Shown one piece after another: positions 196 through 58,419 of a stretch of DNA of 64,000 nt. This DNA is from Malacoraja senta (Eukaryota), in the NCBI GenBank assembly GCA_038087875.1, contig CM075992.1, positions 1,614,001-1,678,000 on the forward strand, in the 5' to 3' direction. The position numbers and the translations under genes were made by a program. Numbering within the stretch: the first letter of the stretch is position 1; the number at the start of each line of letters is the position of its first letter. The notes under the pieces are model-generated. The model did no database searches, was not told the DNA's origin, and worked only from the letters and a program-made list of their open reading frames with translations.

Positions 196-793
196 AATTC
201 GGATAAGCAGTTGGTTAGACACACATTGGTGGCAGAGAGTAGGGAAGATTCAAGCAAGAGGACATGATTTGAGTATTAAGGGACAAAAGTTTAGGGGTGA
301 CATGAGGGGGAACTTCTTTACTCAGAGTGTGGTAGCTGTGTGGAATGAGCTTCCAGTGGAAGTGGTGGAGGCAGGTTCGATTTTATCATTTAAAAATAAA
401 ATGGTTAGGTATATGGATGGGAAAGGAATGGAGGGTTATGGTCTGAGTGCAGGTAGATGGGACTAGGTGACAGTAAGTGTTCGTCACGGACTAGTAGGGC
501 CGAGATGGACTGTTTCCGTGCTGTAATTGTTATATGGTTATATCAGGGCTGGGATGCCTGGTTGAATAGGTCTGGGTAGAGATGTACTGAAATGGACGGG
601 TGAAATGGGTGGAGGTACATTGGTTACACGACGAGGAAGAACAATGCTGGATAGGGCTTTTCCGGGTAGGAAGACCATAACAGTGGTCGCACCCACCCAG
701 AAGGTGGGTATTGGAGGCTGGTGGTACAGTGTAGGATTCAGTAGAATTGGTGTGGTTGGTAATTCATCACACACTATGAGGCTGTGTCCAAAG

Positions 794-2641: not shown

Positions 2642-2779
2642 TTCTTCTTCTTTCGTGTGGCGTGCACAGCCTAAAGTTGTTGGACAACTTGTTCTATTTG
2701 ATCTTCCGTTTGTGCACGTCGAGTCGATTGCATTAGTCGAAACAGGGCTGACCACGTGAAGGTTGCAATCTTCCACCCC
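2642..2779 (-). mobile_element. Short non-autonomous retroposon (SINE-like) with ribozyme head and (GAA)n tail, copy 1
   Basis: Imperfect 11-bp TSD tactgactgcc/tgctggctgcc at 2631-2641 and 2780-2790. Colinear with 6166-6307. Confidence 0.82.
2726..2779 (-). ncRNA. Candidate minimal HDV/CPEB3-like ribozyme, sense to CNN1 pre-mRNA
   Basis: Minus strand reads GGGGTGG-AA-GATTGCA-ACC-TTCACGT-GGT-CAGCCCT-GT-TTCGA-CTAA-TGCAATC, the same nested double-pseudoknot order. Confidence 0.76.
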
Positions 2780-3749
2780 TGCTGGCTGCCAAAGGACAGT
2801 CTTAAGGTGAGAGGGGAAAGATTTAATAGGAACCCGAGAGGCAACTTTGTCACACAGAAAGTGGTGGTTATATGGAACAGGCTTTCAAAGTTGGTAGTTG
2901 AGGCAGGCACGATGACAACATTTAAAAGACATTTGGATAGGGAAGGTTTAGAGGGATATGGGTCAAACATAAGCAGGTGGGACTCGTGTAGATGGGGCAT
3001 CTTGGTCGGCATAGGCAAGTTGGGCTGAAGGGCCTGTTTCCGTACTGTATGACTAACTTTCTATCTCTGTCGCCTCCAACGTATAGCTCTGCGATTTCCC
3101 CCTTCATGTGATCAACCTGTGCCTCTCCCAGGACTCTGGTGCTCCAAATATACAACCACCCTTTGTGTCTAAGCAGGTAGTTTTGTTGCAACATATGTCT
3201 CCATATTATGAATTGGTTAGAGTATAAAGCAATTGGGGAACACTATTGTATTGTGTGGGTTAAATTGGTTATAACGTAATCTCCATTGTGAACTAGTGGT
3301 CCACCGTAAGGGCTGGCACTGGGACTGCTGTTTCACAACGCCAGAGACCCAAATACAATCCTGACCTCGGGTGCTGCCTATGTGGAGTTTGCACATTCTC
3401 TCTTTGACAGTGCGGTTTTCCTCCAGGTGCTCTCCACAAAATGCTGGAGTAACTCAGCGGGACAGGCTGCAGCATCTCTGGAGAGAAGGAATGGGTGACG
3501 TTTCAGGTCGAGGCACCTTCTTCAGTCCCTTCTTTCCTTCAGGTGCTCTGGTTTCCTCCCACATGTGGGTTGTAGATTAATTGCCCTCTAGAATGCCCCT
3601 GGTGTGTAGAGAGTGGATATGAAAGTGGCATAACATAGACGTAGTGTAGATAGGGGACAATATTCAGCGTTGGCTTGGTGGGACGAAGGACCTGTTTCCA
3701 CACTCTGTCTCTGTCATATGAATATTGTTTTGGAAATTGACATATGTTA

Positions 3750-6043: not shown

Positions 6044-6165
6044 AGAAAGGGAAGTGAGGTGTGGCCTTTGGTGCCAGAAAGCTTGGGCCCAGGGGAGCAA
6101 GGAGGCCCAGGATTAGCGCCCCGAACTAGACCCCAGTTCAGTTCCAGGCCTACGAGCTTCCCAGC

Positions 6166-6219
6166 GGGGTAGGAGATTGCAACCTTCACGTGGTCCGCCC
6201 TGTTTCGACGAATGCAATC
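6166..6219 (+). ncRNA. Candidate minimal HDV/CPEB3-like ribozyme
   Basis: P1 GGGGTAG/CCGCCCT, P2 GATTGCA/TGCAATC, P3 ACC/GGT, L3 TTCACGT, J4/2 CGAA, and P4 reduced to TTCGA. Confidence 0.78.
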
Positions 6220-6307
6220 AACCTGGCGTGCACAAACAAACAAGATCAAATAGAACTAGTTGTCCTACAACTTTGGGCTGTGCACGCCATACGCAAGAAG
6301 AGAAGAA
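6166..6307 (+). mobile_element. Short non-autonomous retroposon (SINE-like) with ribozyme head and (GAA)n tail, copy 2
   Basis: Perfect 12-bp TSD gagcttcccagc at 6154-6165 and 6308-6319. Homologous to 2642-2779, with the same 5' start GGGGT. Confidence 0.85.
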
Positions 6308-7949
6308 GAGCTTCCCAGCAATCAACTCATTACCTGTACCTGGCCCCATGCCATATTTAACAGTGAAACTGATCTTGGAATCCCTTTTACTCAATCCCAT
6401 TTGTAGAATCTCAAAGGATATGGGGAGAAGGCAAGAGAATGGGGTTGAATGACAAACTGTAGATCAGCCATGATTGAATGGTGGAGTAGACTCCATAGGC
6501 CGAATGGCCTAATTCTGCTCCTATGATATGAACGTGGCTGAGATTGCCTATTTCTATCTCCATACAATGTCTGATCGCACCCCTTTCTGAACTCGAATGC
6601 TGCTGAACCCTCATTCACACCTTTGCTTCCACTTGACTTGACCAGGGCAACACACTCCCGCGCGGTAACGTGCATTCTCCACCGTTCAAACCTCTGCTCC
6701 CTGTATACCAGCACGTACTAAGTCCTTCTCATCTAGTGTCCATGCGCTTTCCGACCTGCACTGGGTCCTGATTAAGCAAGCCTTGATCTTAAAATTTAAG
6801 AAAGAACTGCAGATGCTGGAAAAACGAAGGTGGATAAAAATGCTGGAGAAACTCAGCGGGTTTCACCTTTGATCTTAAAATTGGCACCTTTTCTCAAATC
6901 TCTTCAAGACTGTGCCTCTCCCTAACTCTGTAATTATCCAAGTCCTATGTTCCTCGAAGTCTCCCCTGATTAAATCCCCAGTCATAATCACTCCAGCATG
7001 GGGAGGTATCTCCTCTAGTAAGTCATAGGAGGAGAATTATGCCATTCGGCCCTTCGAATGTACTCCGCCATTCACTCATGGCCGATCTATCCCTCAACCT
7101 CACTCACCTGGTCGCCATGGAAAAAATCAATATTTTTTTACTCGTGGCTTTAGTCGAGGTAGGTCGTAATGCTATTTTTAGGCAGTCGAAGTCAATCAAT
7201 GGAAGGTAAAGCTCGTTGATAAAAAAAACGTTGTCTGGCTTCTTATTAGTGTCTCCACTCCTTCTCCCCCCCCCTTCTCCCCCCTTCTCTCACCCTCTCT
7301 AAAGGACTTACCGAACTGTGCTGGCCGTCTTTTACCTTCCGGCTGTGAATTTCAGACAGCGCTCCCCCGCTTTCCCTGGCCCCCGTATTTGCGATATGTT
7401 TGTGTGTGTGTGTGTGTGTGTGTGCGTGCGCAGACGGTCGATCCGGCTCGCGGTTTCATCACTGACGGTCGATCCAGCTCGAGGTTTTCCAGGCGAGTGC
7501 CCTCGAGCTTGATGGTCGAAGACAGTCGCTGTAAAGTCGCGTCTGTGGGAAAGGCCCTTTAGTCATCACCTTGTGCCCTTCAAGTTTCAAAGTGCTTAAG
7601 TGTATAGAGTCTTAGCTTGCCCGTAAAGGCCTGTTGTCCTGGAGGAGGCACAGGGTTGATGTGTAGTTTAATTTATTGTCACGTGTACCGAGGTACAGTG
7701 AAAAGCTTTTTTTTGCGTGCTATCCAGTCAGTGGAAAGACAATATGCGATTACAAGTGAGCCATTTACAGTGTATAGATACATGGTCAGGGATGTTGCAC
7801 GTGTCCCCATAGCCATTGGCACCCAATAACTCATACAGCTCAGCATTAATGTTTGTGAAGCACTTTGAAATGTAGCTACATTGAAGTTGCTATATAAATA
7901 GAAGTTGTTACAATGAGCTTGTAGCATCCTTACCCTGAGTGTACCTGAT

Positions 7950-58130: not shown

Positions 58131-58419
58131 GGGGGAACATACTGTGGTGAGTTGAGCAAGGTTTAAGTGGCAGAGAGAGAGAGAGAGAGAGCATTTTGGC
58201 CTTTTCCCCACTTTTTAGTGACAATAACCATATAACAATTACAGCACGGAAACAGGTCATCTCGGCCCTTCAAGTCCGTGCCCAACACTTCTTTCTTTTT
58301 TCTTCCCCCGAGTCCCATCTACCATTGCCAGCTTGATGCAAGATTGCTGTTCCCCCCCCACCCCCACCCCCAAGAAACCAAAGCCAGGAAAAAAAGGAAA
58401 ACAGAGACACAAGGAAATC

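What the first reader, a model, noticed from the sequence alone, without database searches (positions are those of the whole stretch)
6154..6319. SINE-like retroposon headed by a minimal HDV/CPEB3-like ribozyme
Seen: a 142-nt element (6166-6307) between perfect 12-bp TSDs, with a second copy at 2642-2779 starting at the same G. Its first 54 nt parse as P1 GGGGTAG, J1/2 GA, P2 GATTGCA, P3 ACC, L3 TTCACGT, P3' GGT, P1' CCGCCCT, GT, TTCGA, J4/2 CGAA, P2' TGCAATC. Known: this is the HDV-family nested double-pseudoknot order, with a G1-U wobble at the cleavage site and the catalytic C in C(G/U)AA. As I recall it, L3 UUCACGU followed by GU after P1 matches the mammalian CPEB3 ribozyme. P4 is dispensable in this family and is nearly absent here. 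HDV-like ribozymes process the 5' ends of R2/RTE-type retrotransposons. Inference: I see no tRNA-type A/B boxes. The element's 5' end would be cut from host read-through transcripts exactly at G1, which is where the TSD abuts, and its (GAA)n tail would be copied by an RTE-like LINE. I do not recognise this family from elasmobranchs, but I cannot establish novelty without a search.
Basis: partly seen in the sequence, partly recalled or inferred. Interest (0 to 1): 0.92.

Follow-up and report, generated by a model that had tools for sequence, protein, structure and literature searches.

The report
Retroposon headed by minimal CPEB3-type ribozyme
A 140-base jumping element present in thousands of copies in this vertebrate genome begins with a stripped-down version of the hepatitis-delta/CPEB3 self-cutting RNA, which most likely trims the element's RNA to its exact first base, and full-size look-alikes of the mammalian CPEB3 ribozyme head a LINE in the same genome.

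Summary
Window 6166-6307 (+) is a 142-nt element between perfect 12-bp target-site duplications, and 2642-2779 (-) is a second copy. The family is large: one 21-mer from its head occurs 5,225 times in the 1.94-Gb genome. Of 94 full-length copies examined, 79 start at the same GGGG.

The first 54 nt fit the HDV nested double pseudoknot with no P4. L3, the GU after P1 and J4/2 match the Rfam CPEB3 consensus.

The Rfam CPEB3 model also finds 39 matches above its cut-off in this genome. The best (61-64 bits) lie at the exact 5' end of a 3.1-kb single-ORF, (GAA)n-tailed, RTE-like LINE.

Against that LINE ribozyme, 8 of the head's 17 helix pairs are changed on both sides and none is broken. A second 54-nt P4-less family has other helices but nearly the same 5-nt linker.

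No tRNA or Pol III box signal is present.

Most likely the head cuts the element out of read-through transcripts at G1, and a (GAA)n-tailed LINE copies it. Cleavage is untested and the partner LINE is only inferred.

I rate this a new variant of a known kind. As a by-product, it offers a possible outgroup for the "mammal-only" CPEB3 ribozyme.

The parts
6154..6165 (+). 5' target-site duplication gagcttcccagc of the + copy
   Evidence: Identical 12-mer at 6308-6319.
6166..6307 (+). Whole non-autonomous retroposon, subfamily A copy (142 nt)
   Evidence: 100% self hit. All 40 best genome matches are 94-100% identical over nt 1-142. 94 of 101 copies evaluated are full length.
6166..6219 (+). 54-nt minimal CPEB3-type HDV-like ribozyme head. 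The predicted cut is 5' of G6166 and the catalytic C is C6209.
   Evidence: Parse. A consensus-type copy has CPEB3_ribozyme as its best Rfam family at 17.1 bits. Covariation.
6166..6172 (+). P1 5' strand GGGGTAG. It pairs with 6195-6201 (CCGCCCT): G1.U wobble, and A6.C31 is a mismatch private to a small set of copies.
   Evidence: Consensus-type copies have G6-C31.
6175..6181 (+). P2 5' strand GATTGCA. It pairs with 6213-6219 (TGCAATC), 7 of 7.
6182..6194 (+). P3 ACC / L3 TTCACGT / P3' GGT
   Evidence: L3 is identical to the Rfam CPEB3 consensus and to the three other ribozyme families of this genome.
6202..6208 (+). GU (3' strand of P1.1) followed by the 5-nt linker TTCGA that stands in place of P4
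   Evidence: A second minimal family has TTCCA here.
6209..6212 (+). J4/2 CGAA with the putative catalytic cytosine at 6209
   Evidence: CGAA in the CPEB3 consensus and in the LINE ribozyme; CTAA in subfamilies B and C and in family 3; CCAA in family 4.
6225..6288 (+). 3' domain. A long-range stem joins GGCGTGCACA (6225-6234) to TGTGCACGCC (6279-6288) and encloses the hairpin AGTTGT-CCT-ACAACT (6258-6272).
   Evidence: The pairs are conserved but do not vary, so there is no covariation support.
6289..6307 (+). 3' end ATACGCAA followed by an imperfect (GAA)n tail
   Evidence: Tail length varies between copies. Subfamily B ends CACACGAAA(GAA)n, close to the LINE end GACACGAAAA(GAA)n.
6308..6319 (+). 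3' target-site duplication gagcttcccagc
2642..2779 (-). Second copy, young subfamily B (138 nt). Its ribozyme head is 2726-2779, with G1 at 2779.
   Evidence: All 40 best genome matches to it are 99-100% identical.
2780..2790 (-). 5' duplication of copy B (GGCAGCCAGCA on the element strand). Its partner is at 2631-2641 (GGCAGTCAGTA), 9 of 11 alike.
   Evidence: Read.

Best explanation
The element is a short non-autonomous non-LTR retroposon. Its head is not a Pol III gene remnant. It is a 54-nt, P4-less member of the HDV ribozyme family with the CPEB3-type core. The element has no recognisable promoter of its own, so it is most likely transcribed as part of longer host transcripts (inferred). 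The head folds into the nested double pseudoknot and cuts the RNA immediately 5' of G1 (inferred from homology, not assayed). This gives an RNA whose first base is the first base of every genomic copy. The 3' end (a conserved stem-loop, then ACG(C/A)AA and GAA repeats) is then used by the reverse transcriptase of a (GAA)n-tailed LINE for target-primed reverse transcription, which makes 11-13-bp duplications. The best candidate partner is the 3.1-kb RTE-like LINE of the same genome. That LINE carries a full-size CPEB3-type ribozyme at its own 5' end, ends in GACACGAAAA(GAA)n and makes an 11-bp duplication (inferred; partner not proven).
For: Family and ends:
- The head 21-mer occurs 5,225 times and a 3' 22-mer occurs 4,093 times in the genome. 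The reversed-pattern controls give 0.
- 79 of 94 full-length copies start with GGGG.
- 58 of 94 have a perfect duplication of 6 or more bases that abuts G1, with a mode of 11-13 bp.
- Subfamily B copies are 99-100% alike in 40 of 40 best hits.

Fold:
- The pairing-only descriptor hits 76 copies of the element and 1 other place in 707,552 positions. None of 200,000 shuffles passes.

Homology:
- Rfam RF00622 gives 39 matches at or above 35 bits among 60 listed.
- The 61-64-bit matches sit exactly where four LINE copies begin to be alike.
- Against them the small element keeps L3 TTCACGT, GT and C(G/T)AA unchanged. It changes 8 of 17 helix pairs on both sides and breaks none.
- Family 4 is a second 54-nt P4-less form with other helices, linker TTCCA and J4/2 CCAA. 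It accounts for 7 of the listed RF00622 matches: five at or above 35 bits (36.2-43.7) and two just below (34.3, 34.6) (place overlaps).
- For a consensus-type head, the two best of 4,227 Rfam families are CPEB3 (17.1 bits, E 0.014) and HDV-F-prausnitzii (14.4 bits). Both alignments place the cleavage site at G1.

Constraint:
- Subfamily consensus sequences differ at 2 of 54 head positions. These are J1/2, position 2 of J4/2, or U5.G32 versus U5-A32.
- They differ at 4-11 of about 79 body positions between distinct subfamilies.

No Pol III signal.

LINE:
- A 940-aa APE+RT ORF, a (GAA)3 tail and an 11-bp duplication.
- Ribozyme and tail lie 3.1 kb apart at three places.
Against: - No cleavage assay has been done. 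No read-level RNA data were available: only contigs were served, and these cannot show RNA ends.
- The head scores 17.1 bits against a gathering score of 35, so it is not an Rfam CPEB3 member by score. The window + copy gave no hit at all at E<=10.
- P4-less HDV-like ribozymes have been validated only for phage and metagenome examples (passages of PMC10879173 and PMC6326823).
- Both window copies, and a set of near-identical copies, carry a P1 mismatch. A perfect P1 is therefore not needed for a copy to exist.
- The covariation is between only four sequence families, so the number of independent events is small.
- A fixed 5' end is also what a Pol III start would give.
- Partner: beyond ACACGAAA plus GAA repeats, the 3' domain has no significant likeness to the LINE 3' UTR (local score 38; shuffles mean 27.7, max 47). 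No LINE sharing the 3' domain was found.
Confidence: 0.75

Rival explanations
1. The head descends from a ribozyme but no longer acts as one. Loss of P4 would have killed catalysis. The fold would be kept for another reason, for example as a binding site for the LINE protein, as a 5' end protector, or as an internal promoter like Pr77 of L1Tc/NARTc. The 5' end would then be set by transcription initiation.
For: P4 is absent in all copies. The Rfam score is low. Copies with a P1 mismatch still multiplied. In trypanosomes the same 77 nt are both promoter and ribozyme (abstract of PMC3383444, listing).
Against: Every residue class that the family needs for catalysis is kept in all three subfamily consensus sequences: G1.U, the C of J4/2, the L3 shared with CPEB3, and GU for P1.1. 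A second, independent P4-less family with the same linker length exists. P4-less HDV-like ribozymes are active in vitro according to passages of PMC6326823 and PMC10879173.
Confidence: 0.13
2. This is an ordinary Pol III SINE of unknown head origin, and the HDV-like fold is a chance fit. The 5' end at G1 would be the Pol III start site.
For: A fixed 5' end and the absence of TTTT inside the element are compatible with Pol III.
Against: No tRNA was found. No tRNA, 5S or 7SL hit appeared in Rfam. The B-box pattern matches no better than chance: 4 matches against 6.2 expected. None of 200,000 shuffles reproduces the fold. The core is identical and the helices fully compensated against LINE-borne ribozymes that score 61-64 bits on the CPEB3 model.
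Confidence: 0.04
3. The ribozyme is real, but the element is mobilised by a LINE other than the RTE-like one, or it is a recent internal-deletion derivative of a LINE not sampled here.
For: Only about 8 bases plus GAA repeats are shared with the RTE-like LINE. A further repeat family shares the same terminal GACACGAAAA(GAA)n. Only part of the genome could be fetched.
Against: No ribozyme of the small element's type with a P4 or a long insert was found: 4 hits, all small duplications or insertions. No family joins other sequence to the 3' domain at nt 55 (10 hits). The youngest subfamily's two tail changes (T125C, C129A) bring it closer to the RTE-like LINE end.
Confidence: 0.3

Closest known systems
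Mammalian CPEB3 intronic ribozyme (Rfam RF00622)
   Same: Same numbering up to nt 38. P1 begins GGGG and closes with G1.U36. P3 has 3 bp. L3 is UUCACGU, GU follows P1', and J4/2 is CGAA (consensus printed). The U20.G25 wobble, C22 of P1.1 and the 4-nt J4/2 described for CPEB3 (passages of PMC4836649) all have the same letters here.
   Different: There is no P4; a 5-nt linker stands in its place. The P1, P2 and P3 sequences differ. The score is 17.1 bits against a cut-off of 35. It is a multi-thousand-copy mobile element rather than a single conserved intronic locus, and it lies in a non-mammal.
Minimal (P4-less) HDV-like ribozymes: drz-Mtgn and theta ribozymes of gut phages (Riccitelli 2014 as cited; PMC10879173)
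   Same: Double pseudoknot without the P4 domain, about 50-55 nt.
   Different: Those are reported almost only from Caudoviricetes, next to tRNAs (passages of PMC10879173: 'nearly 99%' in phages). Here the setting is the 5' end of a vertebrate retroposon, and the core letters are of the CPEB3 type.
HDV-like ribozymes at the 5' ends of non-LTR retrotransposons (R2, R4/Dong, RTE, L1Tc) and their non-autonomous derivatives (R2 SIDEs, NARTc)
   Same: The ribozyme sits at the first base of the element and frees the RNA from a co-transcript. Non-autonomous relatives keep the ribozyme (PMC3774820 passages; PMC3414825 and PMC3383444 abstracts; PMC6765202 passages).
   Different: SIDEs and NARTc are internal-deletion copies of their LINE. 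Here the head's helices differ from the LINE's ribozyme, P4 is gone, and the body is not LINE sequence as far as could be tested.
Schistosome Sm-alpha SINE-like elements with hammerhead ribozymes
   Same: A short non-autonomous retroposon that carries a self-cleaving ribozyme (passages of PMC6765202).
   Different: A different ribozyme class. Those elements are described as Pol III-transcribed and tandemly arranged.

Membership tests
HDV-like (delta) self-cleaving ribozymes | Nested double pseudoknot in the order P1-J1/2-P2-P3-L3-P3'-P1'-P1.1-(P4)-J4/2-P2' | tested here: met
   7-bp P1, 7-bp P2 and 3-bp P3 in the right order, starting at element base 1.
HDV-like (delta) self-cleaving ribozymes | G1.U wobble closing P1 at the cleavage site | tested here: met
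   G1-T36 in all 8 sequences tabulated.
HDV-like (delta) self-cleaving ribozymes | Catalytic cytosine as the first base of J4/2 | tested here: met
   C44 (window C6209) in CGAA or CTAA. Role of the C as stated in passages of PMC10879173.
HDV-like (delta) self-cleaving ribozymes | Helices supported by compensatory changes | tested here: met
   8 of 17 pairs are changed on both sides against the LINE ribozyme and none is broken. Family 3 and family 4 add further pair types. Only four families, so few independent events.
HDV-like (delta) self-cleaving ribozymes | P1.1 between L3 and the two bases after P1' | tested here: inconclusive
   The letters are the same as in CPEB3 (C22/G37, U21/U38; and PMC4836649 passages). 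They never vary, so pairing cannot be tested.
HDV-like (delta) self-cleaving ribozymes | Mg2+-dependent self-cleavage giving 5'-OH at G1 | not testable with these tools
   No assay was possible. Only contigs of public runs were served.
CPEB3_ribozyme (Rfam RF00622) | Covariance-model score at or above the gathering score of 35 bits | tested here: not met
   17.1 bits for a consensus-type head and no hit for the window + copy. The feature is met by the LINE ribozymes (59.7-64.2 bits). For family 4, five of the seven matched places reach it (36.2-43.7 bits) and two fall just short (34.3, 34.6).
Minimal HDV-like ribozymes | No P4 helix | tested here: met
   A 5-nt linker stands in its place. Across the genome only 4 places have 8-38 nt there, all small duplications or insertions.
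SINE (strict sense) | Internal Pol III promoter derived from tRNA, 7SL or 5S | tested here: not met
   The element is therefore best called a SINE-like non-autonomous retroposon.
SINE (strict sense) | Short, non-coding, dispersed, high copy number, target-site duplications, LINE-type tail | tested here: met
RTE-mobilised non-autonomous elements | 3' end shared with the partner LINE | tested here: inconclusive
   Only ACACGAAA plus (GAA)n is shared. The duplication length is similar: 11 bp in the LINE against a mode of 11-13 bp.

The most novel reading that the evidence does not exclude
CPEB3-type ribozymes are an old retrotransposon 5'-processing module of vertebrates. On this reading, the single-copy 'mammal-only' CPEB3 intronic ribozyme is a domesticated 5' end of an RTE-like LINE (or of a small element like this one). 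The P4-less 54-nt form works in vivo in a vertebrate, which would make it the first minimal HDV-like ribozyme with a known eukaryotic role.
Probability: 0.4. Interest if true: 0.85.

Novelty: new variant of a known kind. Interest (0 to 1): 0.78.

Why it matters
HDV-like ribozymes that free retrotransposon RNA from co-transcripts are known, and so are non-autonomous elements that carry them. Three things here are new.

(1) Form: the ribozyme has no P4. According to the papers read, that form has been seen almost only in phages.

(2) Scale and age: there are thousands of copies, and one subfamily is about 0.4% diverged from its consensus.

(3) Core: the core is that of the CPEB3 ribozyme. [quoted passage not shown]

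The LINE-borne 61-64-bit matches in this non-mammalian genome would supply such outgroups. They would also make the origin of the CPEB3 ribozyme testable.

The family also gives a natural series: full-size, long-P4, and two P4-less forms with one shared core. This series could be used to study what P4 contributes.

Tried and rejected
(1) Partner LINE through L061. A 3.4-kb stretch had the head at one end and nt 51-140 at the other, and it looked like a parent LINE. It is not. Other copies of that LINE lack the head and run on upstream into 80-bp repeats. They end at ...CTGTAATTGTTATATGGTTAT without the element's tail. L061 is therefore an unrelated, 5'-truncated LINE inserted into a copy of the small element.

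(2) My recollection that Rex3 ends in (GAA)n. The review PMC6274825 (passages) gives (GAA)2(GATG)n, so no Rex3 claim is made.

(3) MAFFT alignment A2 misplaced the 3' strand of P2. The pairs were therefore counted on a positional parse in a script, and the count of structure pairs was not used.

(4) RNA evidence. All runs offered were contigs. Laid on 2600-2820, they cover the element and not its flanks in three organisms' runs and in one RNA-library run. This says nothing about cleavage, level or strand. Whether the element is transcribed is not shown.

(5) Search for a ribozyme of the small element's type with a P4: 4 hits, all small duplications or insertions.

(6) Search for another family joined to the 3' domain at nt 55: 10 hits. 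Six are copies with a 1-nt insertion and four are truncated or other; none is a LINE.

(7) Two 3'-only places (L062, L066) are 5'-truncated copies, not LINE tails.

(8) The B-box scan matched no better than chance, and ARAGORN found nothing.

(9) Ruminski 2011 and Webb 2009 could not be read because they are not held. Their supplements may list similar elements.

Families 3 and 4 and the second GACACGAAAA-tailed family therefore could not be put in context.
Full report
OBSERVATION

- A 142-nt element at 6166-6307 (+) lies between two copies of gagcttcccagc, at 6154-6165 and 6308-6319.
- A second copy at 2642-2779 (-) starts at the same GGGG. It is flanked by an imperfect 11-nt duplication.
- The one thing missed is that both window copies carry a private mismatch at pair 6 of P1: A6.C31 in the + copy and G6.A31 in the - copy. 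Consensus-type copies have a clean 7-bp P1. In other organisms' runs the letter at position 31 is overwhelmingly C (place 2749).

THE FAMILY

The window lies in a 1.94-Gb assembly.
- A search with the element gave 40 scored matches, all 94-100% identical over the full length.
- A 21-mer from the head occurs 5,225 times and a 22-mer from the 3' end occurs 4,093 times. The reversed-pattern controls gave none.
- I looked at 101 copies from 126 fetched loci. Sixty loci were chosen as best matches. Thirty-nine were taken in chromosome order from the exact-word lists.
- Of the 101 copies, 94 are full length. Of those 94, 79 begin with GGGG, and 58 have a perfect duplication of 6-14 bp that abuts G1, most often 11-13 bp. 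The other 36 have none by this strict test.
- Two of the 39 chromosome-order loci are 5'-truncated copies.

At least three subfamilies exist.
- Subfamily B holds the minus-strand window copy. It is about 0.4% diverged from its consensus, and the 40 best hits are 99-100% alike.
- Subfamily A holds the plus-strand copy and is about 2% diverged.
- Subfamily C is older, at about 4%. These figures are biased low because many of the loci were chosen as best matches.

Public runs of at least three other coded organisms cover the element deeply but not its flanks. Their contigs branch into unlike sequence exactly at both element ends.

IS THE HEAD A RIBOZYME?

Four lines of evidence bear on this.

1. 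The fold is not chance. A descriptor that asks only for the pairing geometry and a C at the first J4/2 position found 77 places in 707,552 positions of held sequence. Of these, 76 are copies of this element. No shuffle of the head out of 200,000 passed.

2. Rfam.
- At curated thresholds nothing in the window matches, and the + copy gave no ribozyme hit at E<=10.
- A consensus-type copy searched on its own has CPEB3_ribozyme as the best of 4,227 families (17.1 bits, E 0.014). HDV-F-prausnitzii comes second (14.4 bits).
- Both alignments are full length and place the cleavage site at element base 1.
- The score is below the 35-bit cut-off because the 16 or more model positions of P4 are missing and the helices have other letters.

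3. The decisive result came from searching the whole genome with RF00622.
- 39 of 60 listed matches reach the cut-off, with the best at 64 bits.
- The best matches are 73-nt ribozymes with a full P4. In one search they align to the mammalian consensus with GCG-UUCACGU-CGC, the GU after P1' and CGAA identical, and the 3' strand of P1 (GAUCCCU versus GGCCCCU) differing at two bases.
- They sit exactly where four copies of a repeat begin to resemble each other.
- That repeat is a 3.14-kb element with one 940-aa ORF holding endonuclease and reverse-transcriptase domains, a (GAA)3 tail and an 11-bp duplication.
- Its relatives are 900-1,050-aa proteins, mostly on 3.0-3.6-kb contigs, from fish, amphioxus, echinoderms, insects and a lizard.
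- By architecture it is RTE-like. I did not place it in a clade by phylogeny.

4. Comparison of this LINE ribozyme with the small element's head.
- L3 (TTCACGT), the GT after P1' and C(G/T)AA are identical.
- 8 of the 17 helix pairs differ on both sides and none is broken.
- A third family (L125, 59.7 bits, long P4) adds further pair types, including GCA/TGC in P3.
- A fourth family was seen through pattern searches. It is again exactly 54 nt and P4-less. Its parse is GGGGGTC-AA-GGAAAGA-GCG-TTCACGT-CGC-GGCCCCT-GT-TTCCA-CCAA-TCTTTCC.
- Family 4 therefore has the same geometry and almost the same 5-nt linker as the element's TTCGA, but other P1, P2 and P3 letters.
- By place overlap it accounts for 7 of the 61-65-nt RF00622 matches. 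Five of them reach the cut-off (36.2-43.7 bits) and two fall just below it (34.3 and 34.6).
- By my hand count of the 100 places listed (136 in all; 16 in the reversed control), about 58 are copies of the small element with base 17 changed, 28 are family 4, 9 are the LINE type, 2 are family 3, and 3 are unrelated.

CONSTRAINT WITHIN THE FAMILY

- The consensus sequences of the distinct subfamilies differ at 2 of 54 head positions in every pair.
- These fall in J1/2 (position 8), at the second base of J4/2 (position 45, G or T; family 4 has C there), or at position 32, where U5.G32 alternates with U5-A32.
- The body differs at 4-11 of about 79 positions between distinct subfamilies.
- None of the head differences breaks a pair.
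- No copy in the genome has a real P4. The pattern allowing 8-38 nt at that site found 4 places, all small duplications or insertions.

RIVALS

- A Pol III origin finds no support. ARAGORN finds no tRNA. Rfam finds no tRNA, 5S or 7SL. A B-box pattern with three mismatches allowed matches 4 times in a 391-nt locus against 6.2 expected.
- A fixed 5' end alone would fit either model. The homology to LINE-borne ribozymes is what decides.
- The remaining serious rival is that the P4-less head is a dead or re-purposed ribozyme. Against it stand the full set of catalytic-core letters in all subfamily consensus sequences, the existence of a second P4-less family, and reports that P4-less HDV-like ribozymes cleave (passages of PMC6326823 and PMC10879173). 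Only an assay can settle it.

MECHANISM PROPOSED

- Shown: the anatomy, the copy number, the fixed ends and duplications, and membership of the head in a covarying ribozyme family of this genome.
- Inferred: the element has no promoter and is transcribed within longer transcripts. The head cuts 5' of G1. A (GAA)n-tailed LINE's enzyme then starts reverse transcription on the GAA repeats.
- The 3' domain has a conserved 8-10-bp long-range stem and an inner hairpin. These do not vary, so their role is not tested.

THE PARTNER

- My first candidate (L061) was wrong. It is an unrelated LINE nested inside a copy of the small element.
- The RTE-like LINE is the best candidate for four reasons. It has the same tail repeat. 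It has an 11-bp duplication. Its ribozyme has the same core. Its end, GACACGAAAA(GAA)n, is also borne by a second, otherwise unlike repeat family: 436 places for the two together.
- That sharing suggests that only the last 10 or so bases plus the repeats matter for recognition.
- The youngest subfamily of the small element ends CACACGAAA(GAA)n. Its two diagnostic tail changes move it towards the LINE's end.
- Beyond that the 3' domain does not resemble the LINE's 3' UTR, and no LINE sharing the domain was found.
- I put the partner assignment at about one in two.

WHAT IS KNOWN

- HDV-like ribozymes at the 5' ends of R2, R4/Dong, RTE and L1Tc are established. So are non-autonomous SIDEs and NARTc that keep them (PMC3774820 passages; PMC3414825, PMC3383444 and PMC4035085 abstracts).
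- A 2019 review states that LINEs and non-autonomous SINEs using hammerhead or HDV-like ribozymes are known in metazoans (PMC6765202 passages).
- P4-less forms are described from metagenomes and phages, 'nearly 99%' in Caudoviricetes (PMC10879173 passages).
- Five full-text searches found no paper tying CPEB3-type ribozymes to retrotransposons of non-mammalian vertebrates. The library lacks most subscription journals, Ruminski 2011 and Webb 2009 could not be read, and Dfam and Repbase were not available.

VERDICT

- It is a new variant of a known kind: a vertebrate, multi-thousand-copy, recently active non-autonomous retroposon whose head is a P4-less CPEB3-type ribozyme.
- The by-product is potentially more interesting. 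CPEB3-model matches of 60 bits and more head an RTE-like LINE in a non-mammal, which may bear on the origin of the mammalian CPEB3 ribozyme.

Noticed in passing
L121-L124 (match at about 1501-1584 of each); L122 1512 onward, continued in L126 to about 1633: A 3.14-kb RTE-like LINE. It has one 940-aa APE+RT ORF, a (GAA)3 tail and the 11-bp duplication ACAGAACAAAA. Its first 73 nt score 61-64 bits on the Rfam 'mammalian' CPEB3 ribozyme model (cut-off 35). Ribozyme and tail lie 3.1 kb apart at three places on contig C1.
   Followed up: partly
L125 1501-1578 (-): A third CPEB3-type ribozyme family (59.7 bits) with a long P4, P3 GCA/TGC and J4/2 CTAA. The sequence downstream is a patchwork of other repeats, and its element was not defined.
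   Followed up: partly
G000 places listed, e.g. six same-strand copies on C2 between 2.65 and 3.78 Mb: A fourth family, 54 nt and P4-less (linker TTCCA, J4/2 CCAA). Most of its places listed reach the Rfam CPEB3 cut-off. The clustered same-strand copies on C2 suggest a segmental or tandem arrangement. Its context is unknown because no more sequence could be fetched.
   Followed up: partly
L061 245-3640; L082-L100; window 235-543 (+) and 58224-58296 (-): An abundant, unrelated LINE. It has an ORF1 remnant with a weak GDSL-esterase-like match, an APE+RT ORF2, a 5' UTR of 80-bp tandem repeats with ragged 5' ends, and an end ...TGTTATATGGTTAT. One 5'-truncated copy is nested in a copy of the small element at nt ~54, and two 3' fragments lie in the window.
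   Followed up: yes
G000 places listed (about 58 of the first 100): A further repeat family ends ...ACATTTGTAACAAGATG-GACACGAAAA(GAA)n. It shares only the last ~11 bases and the GAA repeats with the RTE-like LINE. It may be another passenger of the same enzyme.
   Followed up: no
G000:C4963:105509-105573 (-) and G000:C6033:15597-15655 (-): Two copies of the small element have a palindromic insert (CCAAAGAT..ATCTTTGG type) flanked by a repeat of TTTCGAC, exactly where P4 would stand. This could be chance or a regained P4-like hairpin.
   Followed up: no
window 2712-2779, joints table: One contig in a run guessed to be RNA and one in an RNA-library run join element nt 1-68 directly to nt 1 of another copy. 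This is a head-to-head-start partial dimer whose junction lies at G1.
   Followed up: no
L078 and L079 (C1:15.821 and 15.829 Mb); L086 and L087 (C9:12.04 and 12.09 Mb): Pairs of loci are near-identical including their flanks (99.97% for L086/L087). These are local segmental duplications rather than separate insertions, so a few copies in my counts are not independent.
   Followed up: no
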